From positions 1-64,000 of the IMG/VR virus record IMGVR_UViG_3300047160_002519: DNA of 64,000 nucleotides. The stretch is one strand, 5' to 3'. Positions 4,552 to 45,407 of this stretch are shown one piece after another. Position 1 is the stretch's first letter. Every line of letters starts with the position of its first letter. The translations under genes and the position numbers were made by a program. The notes below the pieces were generated by a model, which saw nothing but the letters and a program-made list of their open reading frames with translations, was not told the DNA's origin and did not search any database. This stretch comes from a virus.

Positions 4552-6507
4552 ATGTCCACGATTCCGGCATCACAAATCGTACAGGTCACCCCAAGTGTCC
4601 TCTCCGCAGGCGGCACCGGACTTCAAGGCACCGGGCTGATGCTGGACAACACCTCCCGCATCCCGCTCGGCACGGTCGCAAGTTTCAATTCGGCTCAGGC
4701 GGTCACTGCCTATTTCGGCGCGGCGTCCAAGCAGGCGGCCGAAGCGGCAATCTACTTTGCAGGTTTTGCGGGCGCGACGATCCTGCCCTCGGCGCTCTTG
4801 ATGGCGCAGTACAATCAGAGCGGAGCGGCAGCCTTTCTGCGCGGCGGATCGCTGGCCACCATGACGCTGGCACAGCTTCAATCGATCTCCGGCTCGCTGA
4901 ACATCACGATTGACGGCTACGCACATAACGCGGGCGCGCTGAACCTGTCGGCAGCGACCAGCTTCTCCAATGCTGCCTCGATCATTCAGACCGCGATCAA
5001 CGCCGCGCTGGCGGCGAGCGGCACATCGACCGCTTCGACGATCGCGACCGGCAGCTTTACAGTCACCGGATCGATCGCGGGCAATGTCCTGACCGTAACG
5101 AACGTGGGCTCGGGCGCGGTTATCAACGGCGCGACCATTACCGGCGGCGCGATCCTGGCGGGCACCACGATCCAGGGCCAGCTTTCGGGCACGGCAGGCG
5201 GCATCGGCACCTACGCGGTCAATCAATCGCAGATCGTGGCTTCGCTCTCGATCACCGGCAGCTATGGCTTGCTGACGGTCGGCGGCACGGTGGGCGGCCT
5301 CTGGGCGGTCGGGCAGACAGTCTCGGGCGGCACGACTTCCGCAGGCACCATCATCACTCAGCTTGGCACCGGCACCGGCGGCGCGGGCACGTACTATGTC
5401 AACAATTCACAGACGGTGGCGAGTGCGGCCCTGTCCGGCAATCCGACGCCTGCGCTGGTGACTTTCGATTCCGTGTCGAGCGCGTTCGTGATCACGTCGG
5501 GCATCGGCGGCGCGGCCTCGTCTATTGCATTTGCCACAGGGACCACGGCGGCGGGACTGGCGCTGACTTCGGCCACGGGCGCGGTGATTTCGCAGGGATC
5601 GGCTCCGCTGACCCCCGCCGCGTTCATGACCGGGCTGATCACGGTCAATTCGGCCTGGGTCAACTTCATGACGATCTTCGACCCGGACGGCGGCAGCGGG
5701 AATACGCAGAAGCAAGCCTTCGCCCTGTGGAAAAACACGGCGCTCGGCGGCAACCGCTTCGCCTACTTCTGCTGGGACCCGGACGCCTCTCCGACCGTGA
5801 CGGTGCCCGCCACGTCGAGCCTGGGCTACATCCTTGAGCACAATAATGACACCGGCACGGTTTTGATTTGGGAAGGGCTCGCCACCCAAGACAACGGATT
5901 GTGCGCCTTCGCGCTCGGCTGGGCGGCCTCGATCAACTACAATCAGATCAACGGCCGCGCGGTCTTGGCCTTCCGCAACCAGCCAGGACTCACCGCGAAC
6001 GTCACCGATCCGATCACCGCAGGCAATCTAGCGGGCAACTTCTACAACTATTATGGAGCCTACGGCGCGGCCTCTACGAGCTTCATCTGGGAGTACAGTG
6101 GACAGATCACCGGGCCGTTCAACTGGGCCGACAGTTTCGAGACCCAGGTCTGGCTGAACAGCTTCTTCCAGCAGCAACTGCTCGCGCTATTTAACAACGC
6201 GCTGTCGGTACCTTTTACGCAGCAAGGCATCGGGCTGATCCAACAGGCGTGCCAGACGGTGATCCAGCAAGGGCTGGCCTTCGGCGCATTCGCACCGAAC
6301 ACTTTGACGCCGAGCCAGATCGCGCAGGTGAACGCGCAGGCAGGAGCCAACATCTCCGGGACGCTGCAAACCCAGGGCTACTATCTGCAGGTCAACATTC
6401 CGAGCCAAACGGTGCAGGTGGCGCGCGGGCCGTGGTCGATTACGTTCTTCTACATCGATCGCAACGCGGTGCAGAGCATCACCATGGCCTCGATCATGGT
6501 CCCGTAA
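4552..6507 (+). CDS. Tail sheath protein (DUF3383-like) with two inserted beta modules
   Basis: MSTIPASQIVQVTPSVLSAGG start, YNYYGAY, GYYLQ, C-terminal VQSITMAS; synteny. Confidence 0.9.
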   Translation: MSTIPASQIVQVTPSVLSAGGTGLQGTGLMLDNTSRIPLGTVASFNSAQAVTAYFGAASKQAAEAAIYFAGFAGATILPSALLMAQYNQSGAAAFLRGGSLATMTLAQLQSISGSLNITIDGYAHNAGALNLSAATSFSNAASIIQTAINAALAASGTSTASTIATGSFTVTGSIAGNVLTVTNVGSGAVINGATITGGAILAGTTIQGQLSGTAGGIGTYAVNQSQIVASLSITGSYGLLTVGGTVGGLWAVGQTVSGGTTSAGTIITQLGTGTGGAGTYYVNNSQTVASAALSGNPTPALVTFDSVSSAFVITSGIGGAASSIAFATGTTAAGLALTSATGAVISQGSAPLTPAAFMTGLITVNSAWVNFMTIFDPDGGSGNTQKQAFALWKNTALGGNRFAYFCWDPDASPTVTVPATSSLGYILEHNNDTGTVLIWEGLATQDNGLCAFALGWAASINYNQINGRAVLAFRNQPGLTANVTDPITAGNLAGNFYNYYGAYGAASTSFIWEYSGQITGPFNWADSFETQVWLNSFFQQQLLALFNNALSVPFTQQGIGLIQQACQTVIQQGLAFGAFAPNTLTPSQIAQVNAQAGANISGTLQTQGYYLQVNIPSQTVQVARGPWSITFFYIDRNAVQSITMASIMVP

Positions 6508-6517
6508 GGAGGAGCGG

Positions 6518-6949
6518 ATGTCTCTCACGTCAGCCAATGCGGTGATTTCGCTTTCGCAGGCGACGCTGTTTCCCATCCCGCAGGTGCTGCAGAACTTCGC
6601 GGCCGACGACGTTACTGACATCGAAGCGGCGCGGGTGTTGGAGCATCAGATGGGCGTCGATGGCGTGTTGTCCTTCGGCTTCGTCTGGGTGGAACGAATC
6701 CAAGAGATCACGCTGAAAGGGGACTCGGCTTCGAACGGCTTCTTCGACGCGATCAATCAACAGCAAGAGGCGGCCCAGGACGTCTATCCCTTGAACGGGA
6801 CTATCATCTTGCCGAGCGCGGGCATCATGTTTACGCTGGTCAACGGCGGGCTGGAGACCTACAAGCCGATCCCCGCCGTTCGAAAAATCCTCCAGCCGCG
6901 ACGCTTTCGAATCGTATGGGGACGGGTGCAGCAAGTCCCAACGAGGTAG
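6518..6949 (+). CDS. Tail tube protein
   Basis: MSLTSANA...LQNFAAD...MGVDG.LS.GFV; directly follows sheath. Confidence 0.85.
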   Translation: MSLTSANAVISLSQATLFPIPQVLQNFAADDVTDIEAARVLEHQMGVDGVLSFGFVWVERIQEITLKGDSASNGFFDAINQQQEAAQDVYPLNGTIILPSAGIMFTLVNGGLETYKPIPAVRKILQPRRFRIVWGRVQQVPTR

Positions 6950-6951
6950 GC

Positions 6952-7464
6952 GTGCGACGACAAGAGGTGGTCAAGATCCCAGAGGATCCGAAGTTTCAGC
7001 GTGACATCGGCAAGCATTTCCTCATCACCGAATGGCCAGCGGCGAAGTCCGAACATTGGGCGATCCGTATGCTGTTCGCCTACAACAGAGGCGGCGGCCA
7101 AATCCCGATGGAAGCCATCGGCGGCGGCATGCAGATGATTTTCTGGCTCGGTCTCAACACCTTCCTGCGCGGTCAGGCGCAAGCCGATGAAGTGATCCCG
7201 ATCATCGATGAGCTTCTGGAGTGCGTTAAGATCATCCGCGACCCGAATGCGCGCGGGCCGGACGGGCACATCATCGCGACCGATCTCATTAGCGATGACG
7301 ATATCGAGGAAACCCTCACAAGGCTGTGGCTGCGGTCGGAGGTAATCCGCATCCACACGCATTTTTCGCCTTACGACATCGTCTCGACCTTGATCTTGGC
7401 CGCGATAAAGGCGGCCGAAGTAGCTTCGTCGAACCTCCAAACGTCCCAAGAAGCATCGCGGTAG
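6952..7464 (+). CDS. Tail assembly chaperone (gpG-like)
   Basis: Between tube and tape measure; RD.GK.F.ITE.PA...E.WA.R...DIEE..T...LR.EV...H; GTG start inferred. Confidence 0.75.
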   Translation: MRRQEVVKIPEDPKFQRDIGKHFLITEWPAAKSEHWAIRMLFAYNRGGGQIPMEAIGGGMQMIFWLGLNTFLRGQAQADEVIPIIDELLECVKIIRDPNARGPDGHIIATDLISDDDIEETLTRLWLRSEVIRIHTHFSPYDIVSTLILAAIKAAEVASSNLQTSQEASR

Positions 7465-7626: not shown

Positions 7627-9117
7627 ATGGCCACCGTCCTCGACAGCCTCGTGTTGGAGTTCAACCTCGACCCGTCGCAGTTCACGCGAGAGCAGCAACG
7701 CATCCTCGATCAAATCCGCAAGATGCAGGAGGAGGTGAAAACCCGCGCCATCGACATCGAGAGTTCGGTTAAGCGAATCACCAGCACGTTCTCGAACCTG
7801 CAACGCGGCGCGCTCGGCGTGATCGGCGGCTTCTTCGGAGGCGAGGTGCTCAAGACCATTGACGGCTTCGCCCGGATGGAAGCTCAGGTCGGCCGGATCG
7901 CGACCACCATCGGTCTCTCGGCGCAACAAACGCTGGCCTGGGGGAACGCGTTCAAGGCGCTCGGCTACGATACTCAGGCGGGCCTGTCGGCGCTGGCGCA
8001 GACCACCTCCACGATCGAGCAGGGGGCGCTCACCGGAAATCTCAGCGCGGGACTGTTCACGGTATCCCAGGCCCTCGGACGGCAGGGCATGGCACCGATC
8101 AATCTCCTGCGGGGCGGCACCGGACCCGAGGGCCACATGACCGCCCCGGAGGCATGGCTGGCGATCACAAAGCGCCTGGATGAACTCGATATCCAGGGAC
8201 CGAGGCGCGCGGCGTTGCTGGACAAAGCTGGATTGGATCCTTCCACGCGAATGCTGCTGATGGAGGGAGCGCCAGCCATTGCCAAGCTGGTCGCGGAGAT
8301 GCAGCGGCTTGCCCCGCTCACCAAGGAGGAGGCCGACCGGGCGCAGGAGTACGTCAAGAACGTCGCCAAGCTTGATACCGCTTTTTCCCACCTAGGCATG
8401 GTGGTGACCAATCTGGCGACCGGGCCGCTCGCGGCATTCGCGGAGTTCCTGGCGCAATGGCTGGGAGGACAGAGCTCGCAAGGCGCTGGTATCAGCATGC
8501 ATGATTGGATTGTTAATGATTGGATGGGATTTCGTGGTTCGTCGGCAATCAAGGACGCAGCGAAGCGAGCGGCGGGCACCAATGCGGCGGGAGATTTCGC
8601 GGCCGTTACGCAGGGCGGCTACACGGAAGCAACGCCATTCCCGGCGATCCGCCCGGGCGAGGACGCGAACACCGCGCGCATGATCATCGCAGCGGCACAG
8701 CGCGCGGGCATCGATCCGAACATCGCATTGAAGGTCTGGTCGAGCGAAGGGCGCGGGGCCTACACCGGAGACAAGGGAACGTCATTTGGTCCATTCCAAC
8801 TGCATTACGGCGGCGGGCTCGGGGACACCTTCTCGGCCATGACGGGACTGAGCGCGGCCGACCCGCGCACGGTGCCGCAACAGATCGAGTTCGCTATGCA
8901 ACAGGCGAAGCGACTCGGCTGGGGACCGTGGCATGGATGGCATGGCTCTCCGACAGCGGGCGGCGCGGGGCGGCCGGGACCGGCACCCCAGCATACGAGC
9001 TTCAACATCCAGCAAATGAACGTCACCGGCGACAACTCGAAAGAGGTGGCGAGCAACATCGGAAAGCAGGTCGAGCGGATGAAGATCGCCTACCTCGCCA
9101 ACAGCGCAGCGGTGTGA
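7627..9117 (+). CDS. Tape measure protein with C-terminal lysozyme/transglycosylase-like domain
   Basis: MATVLDSLVLEFNLD start, helical Ala-rich body; AA.RAGIDP..ALKV..SEG...SFGPFQL. Confidence 0.85.
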   Translation: MATVLDSLVLEFNLDPSQFTREQQRILDQIRKMQEEVKTRAIDIESSVKRITSTFSNLQRGALGVIGGFFGGEVLKTIDGFARMEAQVGRIATTIGLSAQQTLAWGNAFKALGYDTQAGLSALAQTTSTIEQGALTGNLSAGLFTVSQALGRQGMAPINLLRGGTGPEGHMTAPEAWLAITKRLDELDIQGPRRAALLDKAGLDPSTRMLLMEGAPAIAKLVAEMQRLAPLTKEEADRAQEYVKNVAKLDTAFSHLGMVVTNLATGPLAAFAEFLAQWLGGQSSQGAGISMHDWIVNDWMGFRGSSAIKDAAKRAAGTNAAGDFAAVTQGGYTEATPFPAIRPGEDANTARMIIAAAQRAGIDPNIALKVWSSEGRGAYTGDKGTSFGPFQLHYGGGLGDTFSAMTGLSAADPRTVPQQIEFAMQQAKRLGWGPWHGWHGSPTAGGAGRPGPAPQHTSFNIQQMNVTGDNSKEVASNIGKQVERMKIAYLANSAAV

Positions 9118-9901: not shown

Positions 9902-10231
9902 ATGTTTCTCGTTCCGGTGCAACCGATTGCGAGCCAGACGTTGCAAGTCGCGCTGGGCGGCCAATACTGCACGCTCAATGTCTACCAGCAGGCCTACGGG
10001 CTCTACATGGATGTTTTGATCGGCACGAACCCGATCGTGCAGGGCATTATCGCGCTGAACAACAATCTGATCGTCCGGAATGCATATTTCGGATTTCAGG
10101 GCGACTTCGTTTTCTTCGATACACAGGGCACGAGCGACCCGGTCTACACCGGGCTCGGGACGCGCTATTTCCTGCTCTACTACACGGCCAGCGACATCGC
10201 GGCGTTCAACCTGCCAACAGGAGTGGCGTGA
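9902..10231 (+). CDS. Small baseplate protein
   Basis: VP.QP..SQ...V.LGGQ.C...YFGF.GD..F.DTQG.SDP.Y.GLG.RY.L.Y. Confidence 0.75.
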   Translation: MFLVPVQPIASQTLQVALGGQYCTLNVYQQAYGLYMDVLIGTNPIVQGIIALNNNLIVRNAYFGFQGDFVFFDTQGTSDPVYTGLGTRYFLLYYTASDIAAFNLPTGVA

Positions 10232-11271
10232 TGGGGCTCGGCCTTCCGCTCCCAGGCTTTAGCGGCAATCAAATCCCGAACCGGCAGATCGGGCTGCAAA
10301 TCCAGCTTGCACAGAATACGCAGACCAATCAGCCGAGCACCTTTGCAGGCCTCGGCTCGTCCGGCGGCGGGCTGGGTAGCTTATTCACCGGCGGCGGGCT
10401 GGGATCGCTCTTGAGCGGCGGCATCGGCGGCAACACGCTCAACATTCAGGGTTTGCGGGCATCGGCACACATCCGCGACGTCGGATCGGGCATCTCATCA
10501 TGCGACGTGAAGGTCTGGGGCTTGCCGCCGAACTTGATGAATCAACTGAACTCGCTCGGGCTCGCGCTCAACATCATCAACACGAACAACTTGATCATCA
10601 CGGCGGGAGACCCGAATAGCGGCATGTCACAGGTCTACAACGGGACGATCCTCTACTGCTACGGCGACTACTCCAATCAGCCGGAGACCCCGCTAGTCAT
10701 CGTCGGCAACCCGAGCGGCGTGGTGCTCAATGCGACACCGACGAGCTATCAGAGCACGTTCGCGGTCTCGGATGCGATGAGCAAGCTCGCACAGAAGATG
10801 GGTCTGAACTTCAACAATAGCGGCAACGTCAACACGCAACTGCCCGCGATGTACGTGTCGGGATCGCCGCTCGTGCAGATTCAAAAGCTGGCACGCGCAG
10901 CGGCAATATCCTTCGGCATCAATCCAAATGGGACGCTCGAAATCTTCCAGAAAGGCCAGCCGCGCCAGGGCGCGCAGACCACGACGATCAGCGCGGCAAA
11001 CGGCATGATCGCCTCGCCCTCGTTCATTCCGAATGGCATCACGGTCAAGACGCTGTTCAATCCGGCGATAAAGCTGTTCGACAACATCTCCGTCCAAAGC
11101 AGCGTCATGCAGGCGGTCGCGAGCGCGCAGCCGAGCAGCAACATCTCTCAGACGTGGATGGTCAACAAGATCGATCTCGACCTCGAAACCCAGGTCCCGA
11201 AGGGGCAGTGGATGATGACGATCCAGGCGATCTCGGCTGGCTCAAGCCCAAAGATTCCGGCAGCGACATGA
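10228..11271 (+). CDS. Baseplate hub protein
   Basis: Synteny; I.AGD...MS.VY.GTI...DY..QP, G.I.SP.F...GI.VK.LFNP. Confidence 0.75.
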   Translation: MMGLGLPLPGFSGNQIPNRQIGLQIQLAQNTQTNQPSTFAGLGSSGGGLGSLFTGGGLGSLLSGGIGGNTLNIQGLRASAHIRDVGSGISSCDVKVWGLPPNLMNQLNSLGLALNIINTNNLIITAGDPNSGMSQVYNGTILYCYGDYSNQPETPLVIVGNPSGVVLNATPTSYQSTFAVSDAMSKLAQKMGLNFNNSGNVNTQLPAMYVSGSPLVQIQKLARAAAISFGINPNGTLEIFQKGQPRQGAQTTTISAANGMIASPSFIPNGITVKTLFNPAIKLFDNISVQSSVMQAVASAQPSSNISQTWMVNKIDLDLETQVPKGQWMMTIQAISAGSSPKIPAAT

Positions 11272-12020
11272 CAGACACCACCATCAACCAAGCCGACAAC
11301 ACGCAAACCGCTGCGGGGCAGATGTTTCCGGAGGACTACGCTAACGAGTTCGCGGTGATTTCATTCATCGTTCGCCAAGCCCTGGCCGAGATGGAAACCT
11401 GCACGCCGGTGCAGGTCAAGACCGTGCATGCGGGCAGCGGCAACCCGGCGGCGGGCGGTACGGTCGATGTGCAGCTTCTGGTCTCGCTGCTCGATGGCAA
11501 CGGCAACGCCACCAAGCAAGGTGTCGTCTATGGGCTGCCCTACTTCCGGATGCAGAGCCAGAACTGGGCGATTGCGATGGACCCGGCAGCCGGAGACTAC
11601 GGCTTCATCATCGCGGCCTCGCGCGACATCTCGAACGTCACCAAGACGCCGGGGCAAGCGAATCCGGGCAGCTTTCGGCAGCATTCATTCTCGGACGGTT
11701 TCTTCATTCCGTGCTCGTTCAACACCGCGACCCCGGGCGGCTACATCCAACTCAAAAGCGACGGCAGTCTCAACATCAACACGAAAGACGGAGTCGTGAT
11801 AAAAAGCGACGGATCAGGCGCGCTGACGATCACGACCCAGGGGAATGCGACGGTGAACTGCGGCAGCAACACCCTCGATGTCACGGCGACCACGACGACG
11901 ATCCATGGCGATCTCAACGTCACGGGCGACGTCAAGGCGAAGTCCGGCGGCGCGACCTTCGTCCGGCTGTCGACGCACACCCATCCAGGCAACAATCTTT
12001 CCCCGAATCCAGGGACATGA
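11268..12020 (+). CDS. Baseplate spike (Gp138-like) protein
   Basis: LPYFR.Q...I.MDP..GD.G...RDIS...PGSFR.HS.SDG; C-terminal HTH(P) metal-binding tip. Confidence 0.85.
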   Translation: MTDTTINQADNTQTAAGQMFPEDYANEFAVISFIVRQALAEMETCTPVQVKTVHAGSGNPAAGGTVDVQLLVSLLDGNGNATKQGVVYGLPYFRMQSQNWAIAMDPAAGDYGFIIAASRDISNVTKTPGQANPGSFRQHSFSDGFFIPCSFNTATPGGYIQLKSDGSLNINTKDGVVIKSDGSGALTITTQGNATVNCGSNTLDVTATTTTIHGDLNVTGDVKAKSGGATFVRLSTHTHPGNNLSPNPGT

Positions 12021-12021
12021 G

Positions 12022-12411
12022 ATGGCATCGACCCTCTTCCTCGATCCGGTGGCGTGGGACCTGACGCTCGATGTCAATCTCAACATCGCAGTCGCCCCGG
12101 AGCCCTACGCGCTGGCGCAGGATGCGGCGAGCGCGATCAAGACGTTCCTGGGCGAGGTATACTGGAACACGCAGATCGGCGTACCCTACTTCCAGCAAAT
12201 CTTCGGCTTCGCCCCGCCGGTGGCGCTCCTGAAGCAGTACCTCGTGCAGGCGGCGCTGACGGTGCCGAACGTGGCCTCGGCGCAAGTCTTCCTGGCAAGC
12301 CTGGACCCGACGACTCGGATACTCTCCGGGCAGGTCCAGCTTGTGAGCAAGACGGCCCAGGGTGGGGCGGCGAACTTCACGGTCGGCACTCTGACGGGAG
12401 GAGCGCATTAG
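12022..12411 (+). CDS. Baseplate wedge gp25/W-like protein
   Basis: TL.LD...WDL.LD...NIA...PYALAQD.ASAI.TF.GE. Confidence 0.8.
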   Translation: MASTLFLDPVAWDLTLDVNLNIAVAPEPYALAQDAASAIKTFLGEVYWNTQIGVPYFQQIFGFAPPVALLKQYLVQAALTVPNVASAQVFLASLDPTTRILSGQVQLVSKTAQGGAANFTVGTLTGGAH

Positions 12412-12412
12412 C

Positions 12413-14062
12413 ATGGCAGGCACTCTCGTCCCGACCTTCACCTTCACCTCGACGGGCTTTGTCGCGCCGAGCGGCCCGGCGGTGCTGGCGGGCGTGCAGG
12501 GTGACATCAACGCGGCCTTCGGCAACGTGCTGAACTATTCGCTGACGACCCCGCAGGGCCAGCTTGCGATGAGCTGGGCTGCAATCATCGACAACACCTA
12601 CGCGACGTTTCAATTCTACGCGCAACAGATGGACCCCGCTTATGCAACGGGGCGGATGCAGGATGCGATCGGCCGCATCTACGGTATGCAGCGGCAGCCC
12701 TCGGTCCCGACCCAACTGCAGATTTCGTGCAACGGGCTCTCGGGCGTTACGATTCCCTTCGGCGCGCTGATCCAAGACGGCAATGCGAACCTCTACTCCT
12801 GCGCCACGGTCGGCGGCGGTGTGATCGGCGCGGGTGGATCGGTCACGCTGCAGTTCAACGCAGTGGTGCCCGGGCCGACAGCGGTGCCCGTCTCGGTCTC
12901 GATCTATGGGGCGATCCCGGGATGGGACTCGGCCACAGTGCAGAGCGGCGTGACCGGGCAGTCAATCGAGGGCCGCTCGGCATTCGAGTCCCGGCGGCAG
13001 GCTTCCGTTGCAGGAAATAGTTTCGGCGCAATCGGCTCGATCCTGGGCGCGGTGTCCCAGGTACCGAACGTGACCGACTTTTTCGGCATCAATAACAACT
13101 CGGCCGCTCCGCTCAATGTCTACGGCGTCACGGTGCCCGCGTACTCGATCTTCATTTCCGTTGCGGGCGGCACGAGCACGGCGGTCGCACAGGCGATCTT
13201 TTCCAAGAAGGGCGCGGGAGCGCCGATGGCAGGCAACACCACGGTCACGGTATACGACTCGAACCCGCTCTACACGGCCCCGATCCCCTATCAGATCACC
13301 TATGAAATCCCGGTGCCGATCAATGTCTTGTGGAACATCGTGCTGGTGAACAACCCCGGCATCCCGTCGAACTATGTGACATTGGTGCAGAACGCGATCG
13401 TCGCGGCGGCGAACGGGCAGAGCAATGTCACCAATCCGCCACCGCGGATTCGGATCGGCAGCACGGCCTATGCTCAGAACTATGCATCGGCCATCGCCGC
13501 GCTGGGATCATGGGCGCAGATTTCCTCGATCCAGATCGGCACCATCAACAATGCGGGCAGTGTCAACTTCGGCGGCACGATCTCGGGCACCACGCTGACC
13601 ATCCTCACCGGCACCATCGTCGGCGGCTCGATCGCGCTCGGGCAGTTCGTCGAGGACCCGCGCGTCGTCAACGGCACGCAGATCGTGGCGGGCTCGGGCT
13701 TGAGTTGGACGGTGAACAACCCGCAGACGCTCGGCACCATGACAGCGACGGGCAACACGAGCGGATCATCGACCAGCGTGACGATTTCCGCGGTCTCGGG
13801 TGGTGTCATCAATCAGGGCGGCAACGGCGACGTCATCACCGGCAGCGGCATTCCGACGAACACCACGATCATCTCGCAAACCTCGGGTGCGCCAGGAGGC
13901 GCGGGTGTTTACGTGGTCTCGACGGCAGTCAACCTTGTCGGAGTGGCGCTGACGATCTACCCGGGCCTGATGGCGGCGACCGCGTCGTCGAACACGACCT
14001 CGATCAATGCCGATCAGGTGCCGCAGACCTCGGCCCCGAATATCCTCGTGAGCCACACATGA
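12413..14062 (+). CDS. Baseplate J-like wedge protein with two inserted beta modules
   Basis: TPQGQLA, DP.YA.GRMQDAIGRIY, E.R.AFE.RR..SVA.N. Confidence 0.88.
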   Translation: MAGTLVPTFTFTSTGFVAPSGPAVLAGVQGDINAAFGNVLNYSLTTPQGQLAMSWAAIIDNTYATFQFYAQQMDPAYATGRMQDAIGRIYGMQRQPSVPTQLQISCNGLSGVTIPFGALIQDGNANLYSCATVGGGVIGAGGSVTLQFNAVVPGPTAVPVSVSIYGAIPGWDSATVQSGVTGQSIEGRSAFESRRQASVAGNSFGAIGSILGAVSQVPNVTDFFGINNNSAAPLNVYGVTVPAYSIFISVAGGTSTAVAQAIFSKKGAGAPMAGNTTVTVYDSNPLYTAPIPYQITYEIPVPINVLWNIVLVNNPGIPSNYVTLVQNAIVAAANGQSNVTNPPPRIRIGSTAYAQNYASAIAALGSWAQISSIQIGTINNAGSVNFGGTISGTTLTILTGTIVGGSIALGQFVEDPRVVNGTQIVAGSGLSWTVNNPQTLGTMTATGNTSGSSTSVTISAVSGGVINQGGNGDVITGSGIPTNTTIISQTSGAPGGAGVYVVSTAVNLVGVALTIYPGLMAATASSNTTSINADQVPQTSAPNILVSHT

Positions 14063-14724
14063 CCGGCCCTCCCTATCCACATCCGAGTCCGGCACCGGGC
14101 ACGACGGGAATCGGCCAGTTTCAGATCGGCGTCTCCCCGATCGGTGACGTTCCTACGTTCGATCCTTGGGTTACGCTGCTTTCGCAATACGCCAACTCGC
14201 CCGTCATCACCGCGATGATTCTCGAGTTCAACGCGGCGATGGACATGACCCAGAACTGCTCGAACTTCTACGATATGATGTGGAATATTCAGACAGCGCA
14301 GGGCTACGGCCTCGATGTGTGGGGCCGCATCGTCAACACGACGCGCATTCTGACAATCCCAGGCTCCGCGCAGTTCTTGGGCTTCGGAGAAGCGGGCGGA
14401 AGCTGGACCGGATTTGGCCAGGGCATCTGGGCCTCGCCCGGCGCTGGCCTCACGCAGAACTACCTGTTGGGCGATACCGACTTTCGGCGGCTGATCCTGG
14501 CGAAGGCTGCAACGAACATCACGGACGGCTCGATCCAATCGACCAATGCGATCCTGCTGGCGCTATTTCCTGGCAGGGGCAACGCTTGGGTGGCGGACGG
14601 GCTGAATATGCAACTGACCTATACGTTTGCATTCGCGCTGACGCCCGCCGAGTTCGCGATCGTGCAGACCCCTGGCATTTTGCCCGCTGCGACCGGCGTG
14701 ATAGTAAACATCGCGCAAGTATGA
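14059..14724 (+). CDS. Baseplate wedge DUF2612-like protein
   Basis: TLLSQYANSP, W.I.TA.GYGLDVWGRIV, L.D.DFR.LILAKA..NI. Confidence 0.85.
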   Translation: MTGPPYPHPSPAPGTTGIGQFQIGVSPIGDVPTFDPWVTLLSQYANSPVITAMILEFNAAMDMTQNCSNFYDMMWNIQTAQGYGLDVWGRIVNTTRILTIPGSAQFLGFGEAGGSWTGFGQGIWASPGAGLTQNYLLGDTDFRRLILAKAATNITDGSIQSTNAILLALFPGRGNAWVADGLNMQLTYTFAFALTPAEFAIVQTPGILPAATGVIVNIAQV

Positions 14725-14736
14725 GGGAGGATTATC

Positions 14737-15888
14737 GTGAGGCATCTCCGTGCGCTTCTTCTTGCGGTGCTCGCCGCTCTCGCTCCGATGCAGGCGCACG
14801 CGCTCTCGCGCGGATCACCGCCGAACAAGAACGGCGTGCCCTGGGGCAACAGCGCGGGCACGAGCTACATCCGCGTTATCCCAGTGCCTTCGCAGATCGG
14901 CATTCAGAACTGCGCGGCGAGCTATACCGATGGATTCCCCCCGCTGACCTTCCTGCCCGCAGGCGCGGGCGGCTGTCCGCCGTTCGGCCAGGACATGAAC
15001 GGCATCCTCAATGCGAACGCGCTGGCGATCCAGTGGATGTTTGCAGGCGGCACGGTCAACTATGACGCTACCTTTCAAACCCAGATCGGCGGCTATCCGA
15101 AAGATGCGCTGGTTCAATCGAACATCCTGATCGGGCGCGTATGGCGATCGACTGCCGATAACAATCTGACGAACCCGGACGATCAAACCGGCGCGACGGT
15201 GAACTGGGACGTTCCCGTAGGCTCGATGCGCGCGGGCACGCTGATCGCGACTTATAACGGGGGGACCGCGATGATTGGCGCGGTCTATGCGAACGGCAGT
15301 ACGGTCGGAGACGCGTCCTCGAACGCAACCACGCGAGCGAACTCCGATACTTATTGGCTGTTCTCGTATCTATGGAGCACTTGCGGCTCATGCGGCATCT
15401 TCACCTCGGCGGGCGGCGGTTCGACCAAGACAACGATCGCGGCTGACTGGGCTGCGCATAAGCAGATGGCAACGCCGGACTTGCGCGGTACGACTGTGAT
15501 GGGAGCCGACAACTCTTCTACGCGGCTCACCGGCGTGCCTGTAGTCTCCGGCTCGGCAACAGCAACCGGCTCTATACTCGGTGAGAATCTGCACACTCTG
15601 ACCTCACCCGCCGAGATCCCGGCGCACACGCACTCCCCCACGGTGAGCCAGGGCTGCTCGGCCTCGGACTCCGGGCATTCGCACTCGATCGGCTTTACCT
15701 TCGGCGGCACCGCAGTGGGCTCGCCCGGCGGCTCATTCGCGGCGGCCGGGTCCACTGGCACCACGACCAATAGCGCGAACATCACGTGCTCGACTGCAGT
15801 CGGTGTCACGATTGGCAGCACCGGCAGTAGTGGCGCGCATAACACGGTCCCACGCTCAACGATAATCTTCTGGTACCTGCAGCTATGA
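14737..15888 (+). CDS. Tail fibre (collar-type) with N-terminal signal peptide-like leader
   Basis: DGFPPLTF.P..AGG.PP.G.DMNGIL and IGGYPK anchor motifs; TPDLRG...GE..HTLT...PAHTH...AHNTVP collar-type C-terminus. Confidence 0.85.
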   Translation: MRHLRALLLAVLAALAPMQAHALSRGSPPNKNGVPWGNSAGTSYIRVIPVPSQIGIQNCAASYTDGFPPLTFLPAGAGGCPPFGQDMNGILNANALAIQWMFAGGTVNYDATFQTQIGGYPKDALVQSNILIGRVWRSTADNNLTNPDDQTGATVNWDVPVGSMRAGTLIATYNGGTAMIGAVYANGSTVGDASSNATTRANSDTYWLFSYLWSTCGSCGIFTSAGGGSTKTTIAADWAAHKQMATPDLRGTTVMGADNSSTRLTGVPVVSGSATATGSILGENLHTLTSPAEIPAHTHSPTVSQGCSASDSGHSHSIGFTFGGTAVGSPGGSFAAAGSTGTTTNSANITCSTAVGVTIGSTGSSGAHNTVPRSTIIFWYLQL

Positions 15889-17228
15889 AAAAATCTTGCA
15901 AAAAAATCCTCGGTTTTGGCATTGCGCTGGCGCTGACGATTGCGCCCGCCTTCGCGCAACAGAGTGCGCCGAACTGGAGCTACGGCTACGTGCCGACTCC
16001 AGCCGAATGGAACTTCTGGTTCGCGAAGAAAACCGATTGGCCTGGGCAGCCCTCGTGCTTGGTCACCGGCTGCACGCTGACCGGCCCCGTCTTGACGACG
16101 CCTTCGGTCGCGGGCGCGGCGGGCTTGAACGTTCCCCCAGGCGTCGCCCCGACAGCGCCGAACGCGGGCGATATCTGGACCTCGACTGCCCCGCTCGGCA
16201 TGTACGTGCGGCTCGGCACGACGAACTACAATCTCTTGAGCCCGGTGCATGCGCCGTTGGGGCGGATCACGCTGACCGCCAATACCCCGGTGATGACGGC
16301 AACCGCCTCGGCGCAAACGACACTGCGTTACGATTGCGCGACCAACGCGAGCGGCGGTAGCGGCGTCTGGTACTTCGACGGGGTAAATGATCAGATCGAT
16401 TTTATCGCGGCTTGTGAGGTGACGGACGCGATGGTTTCGGCGGCGAGCGCGGGCCAAGTCGTCTCGGGTCAGATTTACGATCTATGGTGGGCGCACGGCG
16501 GGGCGAACCGCATCTGTCTCGCGATGAGCACTGCAGTTGGAGGCGGCGGCGGATGGGCGAGCGATGCGGGCGGATCGAGCACGTCACGCGGCACCGGCTA
16601 CACGCAACTCGACTATGCGACGCGGGCCTACATCACGAACAAGAATGCGATCTCGAACTGCTTCAACGGAGCGGCCAACTACGGCACGCTGCTCGCCAAT
16701 CAGGCGACCTATCTCGGCACGGTGCTGGCGAGCGCGAACGGGCAAGTCAGCTACATTTTCGGCGCGTCGGCTTCCGGTGGCACGGCGGGCGTATTCGGGG
16801 TTTGCAATCCGTTCAACCAAGTCTTGGTCACCTCGGCCGTCATCGACACCGGCGCGACCTACACCTACTCCTCGGCCACGATCCGGCAGAGCCGCGCGAG
16901 TGCGGGGATGCAGCACCAAGTCGTTAACTGCCTTGGTACGCAAGCCTACGACCTTGCCTACGCCTCGGGAATCACGACGACAGCCACGGCGGCTGCGCAG
17001 GGCAACAAGGGCATCGGGCTAAACTCGACGACGACCTACGCGAGCCAGCGCGCGGTGACGTGGAGCCAAGCGGCGGCGGCGATGCAAGGATCGCCGGTGG
17101 CGATTCTGCGTTCCATCCCAGGCTTCGGCCTGCAGACGTTTTCGGGCAACGAAGCCTCAGACGGTACAAATGCGCATACCTTCGACGCGCAATCGACCGA
17201 CAACCTTTCGATCTCGTTCATGAACTAG
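15885..17228 (+). CDS. Second tail fibre / receptor-binding protein with signal peptide-like leader
   Basis: AFA|QQ leader; PNW..GYVPT..EWN..F..K.D; beta-rich, 8 Cys in the mature part. Confidence 0.7.
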   Translation: MKKSCKKILGFGIALALTIAPAFAQQSAPNWSYGYVPTPAEWNFWFAKKTDWPGQPSCLVTGCTLTGPVLTTPSVAGAAGLNVPPGVAPTAPNAGDIWTSTAPLGMYVRLGTTNYNLLSPVHAPLGRITLTANTPVMTATASAQTTLRYDCATNASGGSGVWYFDGVNDQIDFIAACEVTDAMVSAASAGQVVSGQIYDLWWAHGGANRICLAMSTAVGGGGGWASDAGGSSTSRGTGYTQLDYATRAYITNKNAISNCFNGAANYGTLLANQATYLGTVLASANGQVSYIFGASASGGTAGVFGVCNPFNQVLVTSAVIDTGATYTYSSATIRQSRASAGMQHQVVNCLGTQAYDLAYASGITTTATAAAQGNKGIGLNSTTTYASQRAVTWSQAAAAMQGSPVAILRSIPGFGLQTFSGNEASDGTNAHTFDAQSTDNLSISFMN

Positions 17229-17240
17229 GAGGGTGAACAT

Positions 17241-17444
17241 ATGATCGAGCTATTGATCCAGTTGGTCATCGTCCTATTGATCGCCGGGCTCGTGTGGTGG
17301 ATCATCGAGCAACTGTTGCCGCTCGTCCCGATGCCCGGGCCGATTGCACGAGTGATTCGGGTTCTCGTGATCGCGATCATCGCGCTGATTGTGATCTATT
17401 ACGCGCTGATCCCGCTGTTGCATGAAATCCCGCGCGTGCGGTGA
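17241..17444 (+). CDS. Two-TM membrane protein, holin candidate
   Basis: Two long hydrophobic helices, RBS GGAGG, end of late operon near the lysin. Confidence 0.55.
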   Translation: MIELLIQLVIVLLIAGLVWWIIEQLLPLVPMPGPIARVIRVLVIAIIALIVIYYALIPLLHEIPRVR

Positions 17445-17494: not shown

Positions 17495-17653
17495 ATGAAA
17501 AACAAAATCATCGTTATTGCATTAGCGCTGCTCGCGCTCGCGCTGTTTACCTGGGCAGTATTTTCAAGTCCGATCAGGGGCAGGGAACGGGTACAAGACA
17601 AGCACCTCGTCATCGGTCGAGAGTTGGAGCGCTTCGAGGAGGCCTGGGGATAG
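17495..17653 (+). CDS. Single-TM small protein
   Basis: RBS GGAGAGG; MKNKIIVIALALLALALF...; overlaps the lysin 3' end convergently. Confidence 0.4.
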   Translation: MKNKIIVIALALLALALFTWAVFSSPIRGRERVQDKHLVIGRELERFEEAWG

Positions 17654-18559
17654 ATCGGCGGCGCGGCCGGTATCCTCATGCGGCCCCCAATCGGCGGGGC
17701 GGGCCAGGAGCGTCTTTCCGGTCTCCACTGCCCGCACGATCGCAACCAAGTTCTGGTCGGCCAGCATCTCTTTCGGCGTGATATCGTAATCCCATCTGCA
17801 CGCGACATAGAACTTGTCCGGATCGAGCCGCCGCGCGAGCCCGGTGGTGCCCGGCGGTTGTTGGGGCAGGAACAGCCCGGGCGCGTCGTCGAGTTCGTAG
17901 ATGAAGGCAAGTCCCTCGCTCGGAGAGACACCATCATCCTCCGGGCCGCCAAACCAACTGCACGGGCCGGAGAAGGCAGTGGTGAACTCGGGCTCCCGCC
18001 TGGGCGGCGGCACGATCTCGGGAGCGGTTTCGACATCGGGCAGCGCGATGGCAATCGCCTTACATATCTCATCGAAGTGCTGATGGTAGAGCGAGACATC
18101 GGCCTCGCTGTCCACGAAACAGATTTCAAGAAGCAGAGCCGGAGCGATAGTGTGATTCAGGAAGTAATAGTTTCCGAGCTTGCCGCCGCGATCCCTGAAG
18201 CCACCGGCATCCGCTATCGCACCGGACACCTTGCGCGCCAAATCTTCCTGGGTTTTGTAATAGACTTCGCAGCCCATCGGCTCACTGGTCGCATTGGAGC
18301 AGTTCAAATGTACTGACACGTCGAGCTTGTGCGGTAGCGAGGCGTTGTGAAAATCGACAATGCGGTTGAGATTCTCCTCCTGATTGTCCGAGACGTCATC
18401 ATGAAAGGTGATGACTTTGGCGCCGAGCTTGCGTAGCTGCAACGCGACCTCCTCGACGATGCGCCGCGCCTCATTCACTTCGTCGAGTCCCCACGGCTTG
18501 GGACCTTCGGCACCGCGAATGTATTTTCCGTGGCCGCTCGAAATAACGACATCCACCAT
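17564..18559 (-). CDS. Endolysin: N-acetylmuramoyl-L-alanine amidase (Amidase_3) plus C-terminal double-psi-barrel-like domain
   Basis: SSGHG, E.NEA, DVSVHLN, G.EVYY, ALLLEICFVD; C-terminal SWFGGP.D...ADWGP...R.ADLSP. Confidence 0.9.
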   Translation of the reverse strand: MVDVVISSGHGKYIRGAEGPKPWGLDEVNEARRIVEEVALQLRKLGAKVITFHDDVSDNQEENLNRIVDFHNASLPHKLDVSVHLNCSNATSEPMGCEVYYKTQEDLARKVSGAIADAGGFRDRGGKLGNYYFLNHTIAPALLLEICFVDSEADVSLYHQHFDEICKAIAIALPDVETAPEIVPPPRREPEFTTAFSGPCSWFGGPEDDGVSPSEGLAFIYELDDAPGLFLPQQPPGTTGLARRLDPDKFYVACRWDYDITPKEMLADQNLVAIVRAVETGKTLLARPADWGPHEDTGRAADLSPGLLEALQLSTDDEVLVLYPFPAPDRT

Positions 18560-45232: not shown

Positions 45233-45407
45233 ACTTCATGGCCCGCGCGTGATAGACGTCCCCTCCGTCGCCAGGGCTCCACGCTCGAAGCGGCTTCATG
45301 AGAGACCCCAGGCCCTCCGGGTGTGATGCCCCTATCCGGAGGGCCGTCTTGTGTCCGCATTCGCGATCTGCGATCTTGAAAAAGAATCAAGACGTGGGGA
45401 ATCAAAG

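What the first reader, a model, noticed from the sequence alone, without database searches (positions are those of the whole stretch)
14737..17228. Both tail-fibre genes carry Sec-type signal peptides and paired cysteines: possible periplasm-matured fibres
Seen: MRHLRALLLAVLAALAPMQAHA|L (good RBS) precedes the baseplate-anchoring motif, and MKKSCKKILGFGIALALTIAPAFA|Q (ATGA-coupled start) precedes the second fibre. The mature parts have even Cys counts (6 and 8), including two Cys flanking DGFPPLTF. Known: tailed virions normally assemble in the cytoplasm and their fibres lack signal peptides. Inference: the fibres are exported, oxidatively folded, and join virions at or after lysis. They may also mask receptors in the infected cell.
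Basis: partly seen in the sequence, partly recalled or inferred. Interest (0 to 1): 0.88.

Follow-up and report, generated by a model that had tools for sequence, protein, structure and literature searches.

The report
Phage tail fibres carrying export signals
Both host-recognition fibre genes of this complete soil phage begin with ordinary bacterial secretion signals and carry cysteines that come and go in pairs, so the fibres most likely fold outside the cytoplasm where the rest of the particle is built, a route not described for tailed phages.

Summary
The window is 64 kb of a complete 73,233-bp contractile-tailed phage genome. Straight after the baseplate genes lie two fibre genes (14737-15888, 15885-17228), each opening with a Sec-type leader.

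The leaders are family traits:
- My home-made rule flags 87 of 119 listed relatives of fibre 1 and 95 of 119 of fibre 2.
- It flags 0 of 97 baseplate-J and 1 of 102 DUF2612 controls.

Evidence that the leaders matter:
- Cleavage would recreate the N-terminus of leaderless relatives.
- The Cys59/Cys80 pair occurs in 98 leader-bearing and 0 leaderless sequences of 198, but this rests on few independent events.
- Four cysteine pairs in fibre 2 appear and vanish together.
- In related loci an accessory protein gained a leader together with fibre 1.

Evidence that fibre 1 is still a virion part:
- Its anchor stays conserved, and it is the only such gene in the genome.
- A model docks the anchor on the DUF2612 protein through the cysteine-bearing motif.

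Export and oxidative folding are well supported. Joining the particle at lysis is inference. This scan noted the same theme before on other DNA, and I found no paper describing it. No trained signal-peptide predictor and no experiment were available.

The parts
12413..14062 (+). Baseplate J-like wedge protein, 549 aa, no leader
   Evidence: phrog_6 baseplate wedge subunit, E 6.9e-36. 0 of 97 homologues in related loci are flagged by the leader rule.
14062..14724 (+). DUF2612 baseplate protein, 220 aa, no leader. Predicted docking partner of the fibre 1 anchor.
   Evidence: PF11041, E 4.5e-50. 1 of 102 homologues flagged. Complex model: score 0.78 against a best control of 0.00, with interface residues 103-126 and 130.
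14726..14730 (+). Shine-Dalgarno core GGAGG, 6 nt before the GTG start of fibre 1
   Evidence: Read directly from the sequence. SD scan.
14737..14802 (+). Fibre 1 leader: 22 codons with a basic start, a Leu/Ala-rich core and A-H-A before the predicted signal peptidase I cut
   Evidence: Leaders of the same build occur in 87 of 119 listed relatives.
14803..15888 (+). Mature fibre 1 (residues 23-383) with stop codon. Residues 29-150 form the conserved baseplate anchor. The C-terminal part is variable.
   Evidence: Tail-fibre PHROGs match from residue 29. Cultured-phage fibres match from residues 29-61. It is the only match in the complete genome. Anchor identity within the leader-bearing group is 0.665.
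14911..14976 (+). Anchor motif bounded by the codons of Cys59 (14911-14913) and Cys80 (14974-14976), enclosing DGFPPLTF
   Evidence: The Cys pair is present in 98 leader-bearing and 0 leaderless of 198 unique sequences. Residues 59-60, 67, 71-76 and 79-85 are at the predicted interface with DUF2612.
15382..15393 (+). Cys216-x-x-Cys219 of fibre 1. Cys219 is shared with leaderless relatives. Cys216 is present almost only in leader-bearing ones.
   Evidence: Column states in the alignment of 121 sequences.
15885..15956 (+). Fibre 2 leader: 24 codons, start overlapping the fibre 1 stop (ATGA), ending A-F-A before Q
   Evidence: 95 of 119 listed relatives are flagged, and 70 of those 95 have Q at +1.
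15957..17228 (+). Mature fibre 2 (residues 25-447) with stop codon. It has an N-terminal fibre-type domain and a beta-rich C-terminal body with a TNF/C1q-like jelly-roll part. It carries four candidate disulfide pairs: 58-63, 151-177, 211-259 and 307-349.
   Evidence: AlphaFold2 model: mean pLDDT 79.4, above 90 over most of residues 230-447. Foldseek matches to BC2L-C and PLTL lectins and the phi812 spike knob, E about 3.5e-4. Pairwise co-occurrence of the cysteines.
17241..17444 (+). 67-aa hydrophobic membrane protein directly after fibre 2. Possible holin, unproven.
   Evidence: No Pfam or PHROG hit. A weak NCBIfam match below its cutoff to a membrane-protein family.
17564..18559 (-). Leaderless Amidase_3 endolysin, so lysis should need a holin to open the inner membrane
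   Evidence: PF01520, E 8e-23. phrog_435 endolysin, E 3.5e-45.

Best explanation
Both genes encode true tail-fibre (receptor-binding) proteins made as Sec-dependent precursors.

Proposed steps:
1. The leaders take the unfolded chains across the inner membrane.
2. Signal peptidase I cuts after A-H-A (fibre 1, residue 22) and A-F-A (fibre 2, residue 24).
3. The mature chains trimerise in the periplasm.
4. The host's periplasmic oxidation system closes their cysteine pairs. In fibre 1 the pair is 59-80, probably also 216-219 and 307-351. In fibre 2 the pairs are 58-63, 151-177, 211-259 and 307-349.
5. The rest of the particle (head, sheath, tube, baseplate) has no leaders and is built in the cytoplasm.
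6. The fibres dock on the baseplate through the conserved fibre 1 anchor and the DUF2612 protein. This happens only when the holin opens the inner membrane and the two compartments mix, at or just after lysis.

What is shown by comparison: the leaders are real, conserved additions; cysteine pairs and an accessory protein follow the leader; the anchor is kept.

What is inferred: cleavage, disulfide formation, and above all late docking of the exported pool onto particles.
For: 1. Context. The record is complete: 73,233 bp, 97-bp terminal repeat, CheckV 100%. It has sheath, tube, tape measure, hub and wedge genes. The two genes follow baseplate J and DUF2612 with a 12-nt gap and an ATGA overlap. 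Promoter-like sites are no more frequent than chance (2 found, 2.0 expected).

2. The leader is an addition.
- PHROG tail-fibre profiles match from residue 29.
- 161 phage records match only from residues 29-61.
- The fibre of cultured phage Orisa03 has no leader and no Cys pair.
- The predicted mature N-terminus has the same extent as the leaderless N-terminus.

3. The leader is conserved as a pattern, not as a sequence. It is flagged in 87 of 119 and 95 of 119 listed relatives, against 0 of 97 and 1 of 102 baseplate controls.

4. No leaderless isoform is generally possible. 18 of 34 unique leader-bearing loci have no in-frame start codon near the cut site. None of the 16 internal candidates has an SD.

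5. Cysteines.
- Fibre 1, 198 unique sequences: leader with Cys pair 98; leader without 11; leaderless without 85; leaderless with 0; start unknown with pair 4.
- Fibre 2 pairs co-occur: 58/63 both Cys 12, neither 35, mixed 0; 151/177 both 92, neither 22, mixed 0; 211/259 both 117, mixed 2; 307/349 both 8, neither 112, mixed 0.
- The fibres hold 1.6-2.0% Cys, against 0-0.6% in sheath, tape measure, baseplate J and capsid.

6. Module-wide shift.
- The gene after fibre 1 has a leader in 23 of 28 leader-bearing loci, against 9 of 45 leaderless loci.
- In 31 of those 45 leaderless loci it is a short ORF without a leader.
- A roughly 220-aa accessory protein carries an inserted leader in 5 of 5 loci where fibre 1 has one, and in 0 of 7 where it has none.

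7. Still a virion part.
- It is the only anchor-bearing gene in the genome.
- Anchor identity is 0.665 within the leader-bearing group, against 0.563 among leaderless ones.
- Complex model of DUF2612 with three copies of fibre 1 residues 23-160: score 0.78, best of 3 controls 0.00. That mark was reached by 58 of 80 solved complexes and 2 of 110 mismatched pairs. The runs agree in at least 81% of contacts, and the partner's pLDDT is at least 61.
- The counts hold only roughly, because I used my own alignments and three copies.
- The interface is the Cys59/Cys80 motif.

8. The endolysin has no leader, so lysis should pass through a holin step.
Against: - No trained signal-peptide predictor and no experiment. 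The leader rule is home-made and also flags small membrane ORFs: 12 of 100 crude ORFs of this genome.
- The leader/cysteine link rests on few independent events. Only 2-3 contrasts lie on well-supported branches. None goes the opposite way, but the sign test is not significant.
- 11 leader-bearing sequences lack the Cys59/80 pair.
- Two as-called proteins with the pair start right after the predicted cut (P0048, P0080). I could not see their DNA.
- The public gene call for fibre 1 itself starts at codon 18.
- Nothing shows that exported fibres reach particles. No tailed phage is known to assemble this way, and dilution at lysis would work against it.
- The genome holds five further large ORFs of unknown function without leaders (65420-73233, running on to 1765) that could be the working appendages.
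- The complex model may pass through likeness to solved baseplate-fibre complexes, for example the weak match to 9b45. It would pass equally for a cytoplasmic fibre.
- The monomer model of the fibre 1 anchor is poor: pLDDT below 50 for residues 16-86.
- Earlier follow-ups in this scan on other genomes were later priced at about 10 in 100 for the virion-joining claim.
Confidence: 0.5

Rival explanations
1. The proteins are exported but are not virion parts. They act in the envelope of the infected or lysogenic cell. They might bind or mask the receptor from inside (superinfection exclusion, or keeping progeny off debris), or serve as lectins. The particle would use other appendages.
For: - The leaders and cysteine pairs fit any periplasmic role.
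- The fibre 2 body resembles TNF/C1q-like sugar-binding lectins.
- Leader-bearing fibre-2-type genes also sit beside leaderless fibre 1 genes in many prophages, for example those of Rhizobium freirei and Labrys.
- The genome holds other large leaderless ORFs of unknown function.
Against: - The genes lie inside the late tail operon with translational coupling and no promoter-like signal above chance.
- Fibre 1 is the only gene with the baseplate anchor.
- The anchor, including the predicted docking motif, is as conserved as in leaderless fibres. A decoy would not need that.
- No PADLOC defence family matches.
Confidence: 0.2
2. Dual fate. Export is partial. A cytoplasmic fraction, with the leader or from inefficient targeting, is built into particles in the usual way and its cysteines oxidise after release. 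The exported fraction has a second job.
For: - Virion disulfides exist in cytoplasm-built tails of a Rhizobiales phage (Milano, PMC10811340; title and start of abstract seen, passages).
- 9-10 of 34 leader-bearing loci keep a start codon at the old leaderless position.
Against: - 18 of 34 loci have no in-frame start near the cut site, and 0 of 16 internal starts has an SD.
- The accessory protein also gains a leader where fibre 1 has one, so the helper would be in the wrong compartment for a cytoplasmic pool.
- The Cys pair never occurs without a leader: 0 of 85 leaderless sequences.
Confidence: 0.15
3. Uncleaved signal-anchor. The hydrophobic N-terminus tethers the fibre to the inner membrane with its body in the periplasm. 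It is released when the membrane is depolarised, as with signal-arrest-release endolysins.
For: This timing would suit a step gated by the holin. My rule cannot tell cleaved leaders from uncleaved ones.
Against: - The cores are Leu/Ala-rich and are followed by small residues at -3 and -1 (A-x-A) in most relatives. In fibre 2 relatives Q follows at +1 in 70 of 95.
- The cut would recreate the leaderless N-terminus.
- SAR domains are, from recall, Gly/Ala/Ser-rich and lack such sites.
Confidence: 0.1
4. No export. Fibre 1 starts at the ATG of codon 18, as in the public gene call, or the leaders are translated but do not work, and the fibres stay cytoplasmic.
For: P0001, the record's own called protein, has 366 aa and starts at codon 18.
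Against: - A strong SD lies before the GTG and none before the ATG.
- The closest relative L037 lacks that ATG yet keeps the leader in frame.
- About 100 relatives keep leaders.
- Fibre 2 has no alternative start before residue 106, the next Met in its translation (read).
- The covarying cysteines and accessory-protein leader argue the same way.
Confidence: 0.05

Closest known systems
Leaderless tail fibres and tailspikes with the same N-terminal anchor. Examples: Pseudomonas phage Orisa03 gp29, the Burkholderia phage Bcep1/BcepNY3 tail fibre, and Acinetobacter phage tail fibres and tailspikes.
   Same: - The anchor domain is homologous: 52% identity over residues 29-148 to Orisa03.
- The gene sits in the same place after baseplate J and DUF2612.
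- The C-terminal parts are mosaic.
   Different: They start directly with the anchor, have no leader and lack the Cys59/Cys80 pair. They are often followed by a short ORF without a leader.
Filamentous (Ff) phage receptor-binding protein g3p. Recalled; not from a call.
   Same: A phage attachment protein made with a Sec leader, cut by signal peptidase, with disulfides formed in the periplasm before it joins the virion.
   Different: Ff phages are assembled at and extruded through the envelope, so all coat proteins pass the membrane. Here a tailed particle is built in the cytoplasm and only its fibres carry leaders.
Bdellovibrio bacteriovorus MAT fibres (Caulton et al. 2024, PMC10769870; passages read)
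   Same: Trimeric proteins like phage tail fibres that carry a signal peptide followed by a conserved N-terminal beta-rich domain and variable tips.
   Different: They are cellular adhesins of a predatory bacterium, not encoded in a phage tail operon, and do not dock on a baseplate. No sequence relation was tested here.
Signal peptides on phage genes of Porphyromonas phages (Matrishin et al. 2023, PMC10367356; passages read)
   Same: Phage-encoded proteins predicted to use the host's general secretion route, with Q exposed at +1.
   Different: Reported for capsid proteins (where cleavage is ascribed to the prohead protease), spanins and genes of unknown function. Tail fibres are not mentioned: 0 occurrences of 'tail fiber' in the listing.
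Disulfide-crosslinked phage tails: Agrobacterium phage Milano (PMC10811340) and a siphovirus tail tube (PMC13576161; listings only)
   Same: Cysteine bonds stabilise tail parts of phages, including one infecting a member of the Rhizobiales.
   Different: Those proteins are not reported there with leaders. The Milano text does not mention periplasm or cytoplasm.

Membership tests
Sec-type (signal peptidase I) signal peptide | Basic n-region, uncharged hydrophobic h-region of about 10-15 residues, and small residues at -3 and -1 before the cut | tested here: met
   Both leaders pass a home-made rule. The same build is seen in 87 of 119 and 95 of 119 relatives. Controls: 0 of 97 and 1 of 102.
Sec-type (signal peptidase I) signal peptide | Called by a trained predictor (SignalP or similar), or shown to be exported and cleaved | not testable with these tools
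   No such predictor in the tool set and no experiment.
Lipoprotein (signal peptidase II) signal | Lipobox with an invariant Cys at +1 | tested here: not met
   The +1 residues are L (fibre 1) and Q (fibre 2). The only leader Cys is residue 5 of fibre 2.
Tat signal | Twin-arginine motif in the n-region | tested here: not met
   Neither leader has consecutive arginines (read).
Myophage tail fibre with conserved baseplate anchor (phrog_12796, phrog_8763, phrog_38625) | Profile match of the N-terminal domain | tested here: met
   Fibre 1: E 4.4e-26, 2.1e-29 and 1.1e-16, matching from residues 29-58.
Myophage tail fibre with conserved baseplate anchor (phrog_12796, phrog_8763, phrog_38625) | Gene placed directly after the baseplate wedge genes (J-like, DUF2612) | tested here: met
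   True in the window and in nearly all related loci that have upstream sequence.
Myophage tail fibre with conserved baseplate anchor (phrog_12796, phrog_8763, phrog_38625) | Presence in the virion, bound to the baseplate | tested here: inconclusive
   Only a model: score 0.78 against a best control of 0.00. The mark was reached by 58 of 80 solved complexes and 2 of 110 mismatched pairs. At least 81% of contacts are shared between runs, and the partner's pLDDT is at least 61. No proteomics.
Pfam Phage_tail_collar / 'microcystin-dependent protein' (a name JGI gave two relatives) | Match to the Pfam model above its gathering score | tested here: not met
   0 Pfam families for fibre 1 at E up to 0.01. 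The name comes only from JGI labels on P0004 and P0005.
TNF/C1q-like jelly-roll knob (fibre 2 C-terminus) | Structural match to trimeric TNF-like lectins or phage spike knobs | tested here: inconclusive
   Foldseek E 3.5e-4 to 8e-4. TM-score normalised to the target is 0.5-0.6 for BC2L-C, PLTL and ExsFA, and 0.23 for the phi812 spike. No sequence match in PDB.
Signal-arrest-release (SAR) domain | Weakly hydrophobic, Gly/Ala/Ser-rich N-terminal segment without a cleavage site (feature recalled) | tested here: not met
   Leu/Ala-rich cores with A-x-A sites.
Known anti-phage defence or superinfection-exclusion families (PADLOC) | Profile match | tested here: not met
   0 families for either fibre.

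The most novel reading that the evidence does not exclude
The last step of building this tailed phage crosses a membrane. The host-recognition fibres, and in relatives their helper protein, are exported, trimmed and disulfide-locked in the periplasm. Fibreless particles made in the cytoplasm are armed only when the holin opens the inner membrane. Infectivity is thus switched on by lysis itself. Meanwhile the periplasmic fibres may occupy receptors in the dying cell. This would be a new assembly route for tailed phages, widespread in uncultured soil phages of Bradyrhizobium-type hosts.
Probability: 0.4. Interest if true: 0.9.

Novelty: new variant of a known kind. Interest (0 to 1): 0.78.

Why it matters
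Textbook morphogenesis of tailed phages happens entirely in the cytoplasm. If receptor-binding fibres mature in the periplasm, several things follow:
- Assembly has a step gated by compartment and by lysis.
- Fibres can use disulfides for stability in soil.
- Host factors such as Sec, signal peptidase and Dsb become determinants of phage infectivity.
- Recombinant production and engineering of such fibres would need periplasmic expression.
- Gene callers that trim the leader, as happened for this record, hide the trait.

A cultured lysogen with the same arrangement, Bradyrhizobium oropedii Pear76 (locus L003), makes the question directly testable.

Tried and rejected
I therefore could not read the DNA upstream of the as-called leaderless proteins that carry the Cys pair (P0048, P0080, P0004, P0005) or of P0092.
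- A metagenome scan with P0048 did not return its own contig; the best match was 57% identical. Of the 11 loci it returned, 5 with the pair had an in-frame leader (L117, L119, L120, L122, L123). 3 without the pair had none (L121, L124, L126). L118 has the pair but no leader in frame and looks frameshifted. L125 and L127 gave no motif.
- PDB sequence searches found nothing for either fibre.
- Foldseek for fibre 1 found nothing at E up to 0.001. There were only weak hits to Acinetobacter tailspike anchors and the Pa193 baseplate and fibre.
- The fibre 1 monomer model is poor in the anchor. The structure tool returns no coordinates, so Cys-Cys distances could not be measured.
- PADLOC and NCBIfam gave no family for the fibres. 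Pfam gave none.
- A tblastn search with a leader-bearing fibre-2-type protein from Rhizobium freirei found no cultured phage with that N-terminal domain. The weak hit in phage Paso is internal to a T7-like fibre.
- The phylogenetic independent-pairs test is not significant, so I do not claim statistical co-evolution, only a one-way rule.
- The dual-start idea was rejected as a general mechanism.
- The promoter and terminator scan was uninformative.
- Rows dropped: 10 loci in which my motif search found no fibre (L030, L032-L036, L045, L086, L101, L104). Rows with fewer than 100 residues of anchor. Identical anchor sequences were merged (218 rows to 198).
- Of the 518 relatives of fibre 1 at E up to 0.001, only the 120 listed were examined. 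For fibre 2 it was 120 of 154.
- Literature: six searches and passages of eight papers gave no report of Sec leaders on tail fibres of tailed phages. The library lacks most subscription journals, and supplements were closed, so annotation tables that might list such leaders could not be seen.


Full report
WHAT IS THERE

The window is bases 1-64000 of a virus record of 73,233 bp. The record has a 97-bp direct terminal repeat and is rated 100% complete. It is a contractile-tailed phage:
- sheath 4552-6507
- tube-like protein 6518-6949
- tail chaperone 6916-7464
- tape measure 7627-9117
- hub 10228-11271
- wedge 11878-12411
- baseplate J-like 12413-14062
- DUF2612 14062-14724
- portal fusion 45351-50027
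- protease 53552-55990
- major capsid protein 57033-58184
.

The two ORFs of the finding follow DUF2612 directly.

Fibre 1 (14737-15888, 383 aa) starts at a GTG. The Shine-Dalgarno core GGAGG lies at 14726-14730, 6 nt upstream. Fibre 2 (15885-17228, 447 aa) starts at an ATG that overlaps the fibre 1 stop as ATGA.

Both open with a basic stretch, an uncharged Leu/Ala-rich core and small residues at -3 and -1. The predicted cuts are A-H-A before L at 22/23 and A-F-A before Q at 24/25. Neither has a lipobox cysteine at +1 or a twin arginine.

Fibre 1 has six in the mature part, at 59, 80, 216, 219, 307 and 351. Fibre 2 has eight, at 58, 63, 151, 177, 211, 259, 307 and 349. Fibre 2 also has one in its leader at residue 5.

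One correction to the public record. The called protein for fibre 1 (P0001, 366 aa) starts at the ATG of codon 18. That ATG has no SD. It is missing from the closest relative L037, which nevertheless keeps a leader in frame.

THEY ARE FIBRES

Fibre 1:
- It matches tail-fibre PHROGs from residue 29 (phrog_12796, E 4.4e-26; phrog_8763, E 2.1e-29).
- It matches fibres or tailspikes in 161 phage records, but only from residues 29-61 onwards.
- It is the only such gene in the complete genome.
- The Orisa03 homologue sits in the same place after its J-like and DUF2612-like genes. It starts directly with the anchor.

Fibre 2:
- It has no family match and no PDB sequence relative.
- Its model is confident over the C-terminal body: mean pLDDT 79.4, above 90 over most of residues 230-447.
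- Part of the model matches TNF/C1q-like jelly rolls: the BC2L-C and PLTL lectins, exosporium ExsFA and the phage phi812 spike knob. E is about 3.5e-4 to 8e-4. The TM-score to the small targets is 0.5-0.6.
- Its relatives run from about 250 to about 1,650 aa. They share a short N-terminal domain and have mosaic bodies, as receptor-binding proteins do.

THE LEADERS ARE A FAMILY TRAIT

My rule asks for four things: net charge not negative before the core, at least 10 uncharged residues, an 8-residue window with mean hydropathy of at least 2.0, and small residues at -3 and -1.
- Of the 119 listed relatives of each protein, it flags 87 for fibre 1 and 95 for fibre 2.
- Most of the 24 unflagged fibre 2 rows are N-terminal fragments, or have leader-like starts that the rule misses. 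About five look like full-length leaderless forms.
- The sequences of the leaders differ freely while the build is kept.
- In fibre 2 relatives the residue after the predicted cut is Q in 70 of 95.
- As a control I gave the baseplate neighbours the same liberal choice of start codon. 0 of 97 J-like and 1 of 102 DUF2612 proteins were flagged.
- The rule does flag small membrane ORFs: 12 of 100 crude ORFs of this genome. It cannot tell a cleaved leader from an anchor. No trained predictor was available.

THE LEADER IS AN ADDITION THAT LEAVES THE FIBRE INTACT

Leaderless relatives begin about 29 residues before the conserved S-Q-I-G. Leader-bearing ones begin about 47-55 residues before it. The predicted cut falls where the leaderless proteins start.

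A leaderless isoform from an internal start is not a general option. Of 34 unique leader-bearing loci, 18 have no in-frame ATG, GTG or TTG near the cut. None of the 16 that have one shows an SD before it.

CYSTEINES FOLLOW THE LEADER

Among 198 unique anchor domains, drawn from 218 rows of listed proteins and DNA loci:

| State | Sequences |
|---|---|
| Leader and Cys59/Cys80 pair | 98 |
| Leader, no pair | 11 |
| No leader, no pair | 85 |
| No leader, with pair | 0 |
| Start unknown, with pair | 4 |

- All seven rows first scored as uncertain turned out to have the pair.
- Cys216 is likewise almost confined to leader-bearing proteins, while Cys219 is general.
- Caution: on the tree these are few events. 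The fewest changes are 11-12 for the leader and 7-10 for the pair. Only 2-3 contrasts lie on well-supported branches. The cysteines never go the opposite way, but the sign test cannot reach significance.
- What the tree does show is several separate leader-bearing lineages among leaderless ones, for example P0090/P0110, L088 and L061/L066/L080.

In fibre 2 the cysteines appear and vanish strictly in pairs across 120 sequences:

| Pair | Both Cys | Neither | Mixed |
|---|---|---|---|
| 58/63 | 12 | 35 | 0 |
| 151/177 | 92 | 22 | 0 |
| 211/259 | 117 | not printed | 2 |
| 307/349 | 8 | 112 | 0 |

That is the signature of disulfide partners. The two fibres hold 1.6% and 2.0% Cys. The sheath, tape measure, baseplate J and capsid protein hold 0-0.5%.

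THE WHOLE FIBRE MODULE SHIFTS

In loci where fibre 1 has a leader, the next gene has one too in 23 of 28. Where fibre 1 has none, the next gene has a leader in 9 of 45. In 31 of those 45 it is a short ORF without a leader, of the kind usually taken for a fibre helper.

One such helper family, about 220 aa, exists in both settings. In L042, L052, L053, L054 and L057 fibre 1 has a leader. There the helper carries a roughly 20-residue hydrophobic insert right after its first residues. In L005, L006, L048-L051 and L077 fibre 1 is leaderless and the helper has no insert. The rest of the protein aligns, with blastp E down to 1e-30. These loci fall in few clades, so again the events are few. A helper that follows its client into the periplasm is still hard to explain unless the working pool of the fibre is the exported one.

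Fibre-2-type genes with leaders also stand next to leaderless fibre 1 genes in prophages of cultured Rhizobium, Bradyrhizobium and Labrys. Leaderless fibre-2-type forms exist too, in Shinella (L016) and in L020, L094 and L113.

IS IT STILL A VIRION PART?

Three indirect points:
1. The anchor is not relaxed. Mean pairwise identity is 0.665 in the group with leader and pair, against 0.563 among leaderless proteins. The invariant columns cluster in residues 29-148.
2. It is the sole anchor-bearing gene of a complete genome.
3. A complex model of the DUF2612 protein with three copies of fibre 1 residues 23-160 supports binding.
   - Score 0.78, best of 3 controls 0.00.
   - The mark was reached by 58 of 80 solved complexes and 2 of 110 mismatched pairs.
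   - The runs share at least 81% of contacts, and the partner's pLDDT is at least 61.
   - The counts hold only roughly, because I used my own alignments and three copies.
   - A likeness to solved baseplate-fibre complexes may contribute.
   - The interface on the fibre is residues 43, 46, 57, 59-60, 67, 71-76, 79-85 and 87. That is the motif bracketed by Cys59 and Cys80. It faces residues 103-126 and 130 of DUF2612.

None of this shows that exported fibres reach particles.

HOW IT MOST LIKELY WORKS

Late in infection the tail operon is translated. The baseplate, tube, sheath and head assemble in the cytoplasm. The two fibre precursors go through Sec, are cut by signal peptidase I, trimerise and are oxidised in the periplasm.

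The endolysin (17564-18559, minus strand) has no leader. Lysis should therefore begin when a holin opens the inner membrane. The 67-aa membrane ORF at 17241-17444 is a candidate, unproven. At that moment particles and fibres share one space at high concentration, and the anchor can dock on the baseplate.

Shown by comparison: the leaders, their conservation, the paired cysteines, the helper's leader and the kept anchor. Inferred: cleavage, oxidation, the timing and place of docking, and any receptor masking.

I give the whole chain 0.5 and export alone about 0.85.

WHAT SPEAKS AGAINST IT

- There is no precedent among tailed phages.
- Dilution at lysis would work against docking.
- The comparative signals rest on few independent events.
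- The leader rule is home-made.
- The genome holds five more large leaderless ORFs of unknown function: 65420-66064, 66069-68309, 68604-70070, 70072-70806, and a 1,360-aa ORF from 70819 across the terminal repeat to window position 1765. These could be working appendages.
- Earlier follow-ups in this scan reported the same theme on other genomes. Later checks there priced the virion-joining claim near 10 in 100 while letting the observation stand.

COMPARISON WITH WHAT IS KNOWN

- The nearest relatives by descent are ordinary leaderless fibres.
- The nearest by mechanism is the g3p attachment protein of filamentous phages (recalled), which is exported and disulfide-bonded. That virion is assembled at the membrane.
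- Bdellovibrio MAT fibres are cellular proteins like phage fibres, with a signal peptide followed by a conserved N-terminal domain (PMC10769870, passages).
- Matrishin et al. 2023 report signal peptides on capsid, spanin and unknown genes of Porphyromonas phages, not on fibres (PMC10367356, passages).
- Disulfide networks in tails are known for phage Milano (PMC10811340). Its text does not discuss compartments.
- Six full-text searches found no description of Sec leaders on tail fibres of tailed phages. Subscription journals and supplements were out of reach.

HOST AND SPREAD

- Among one genome per species, two records have both leader and pair. One is a prophage region of Bradyrhizobium oropedii Pear76 (L003): fibre 46%, J-like 57% and DUF2612 66% identical. 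The other is a 5-kb contig binned to Terracidiphilus (L004).
- 26 further loci that could be scored are leaderless. They come from Rhizobium, Mesorhizobium, Bradyrhizobium, Labrys, Methylobacterium, Shinella, Burkholderiaceae, Pseudomonas and others. 6 of the 34 loci gave no motif.
- In the viral collection 329 stretches encode a relative. The 80 kept hold both forms.
- The trait is therefore common in uncultured, probably soil, phages and rare in cultured ones.

VERDICT

This is a new variant of a known kind (tail fibres) that points to an undescribed assembly route.

Noticed in passing
window 98-1765 and genome 70819-73233 (L129 7819-10233): The ORF at 98-1765 is the tail end of a 1,360-aa leaderless ORF. 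It starts at genome position 70819 and reads through the 97-bp terminal repeat once the genome is circularised. It has no Pfam or PHROG match.
   Followed up: partly
genome 65420-70806 (L129 2420-7806), beyond the window: A lower-GC stretch (0.53-0.57, against about 0.61) holds four co-directional ORFs of 214, 746, 488 and 244 aa with no leader and no family match. They may be further appendages. They follow a 783-aa protein with TPR repeats and a glycosyltransferase-9 match (63059-65410).
   Followed up: partly
window 58632-58928 (+): A 98-aa ORF between the capsid gene and the neck genes has a clear leader ending A-W-A before QQ. It has no family match.
   Followed up: no
window 43494-44375 (+): A 293-aa ORF between the terminase-like gene and the portal has a leader-like start ending in A-C-A and 7 cysteines. 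There is a weak PHROG match of unknown function only.
   Followed up: no
relatives of fibre 2 (P0122-P0240): Glutamine follows the predicted cut in 70 of 95 flagged relatives. This recalls the Q rule described for Bacteroidetes signal peptidase I substrates, yet the cultured genomes that hold related fibre-2-type genes here are Rhizobiales (proteobacteria).
   Followed up: no
L039 7137-12074: A fibre-2-type gene of 1,645 aa with a leader. If the leader works, a very large exported fibre-like protein.
   Followed up: no
window 45351-50027 and 53552-55990: The portal is fused to a long C-terminal extension (1,558 aa). The prohead protease is fused to a Nudix domain. Earlier notes of this scan deal with both.
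   Followed up: no
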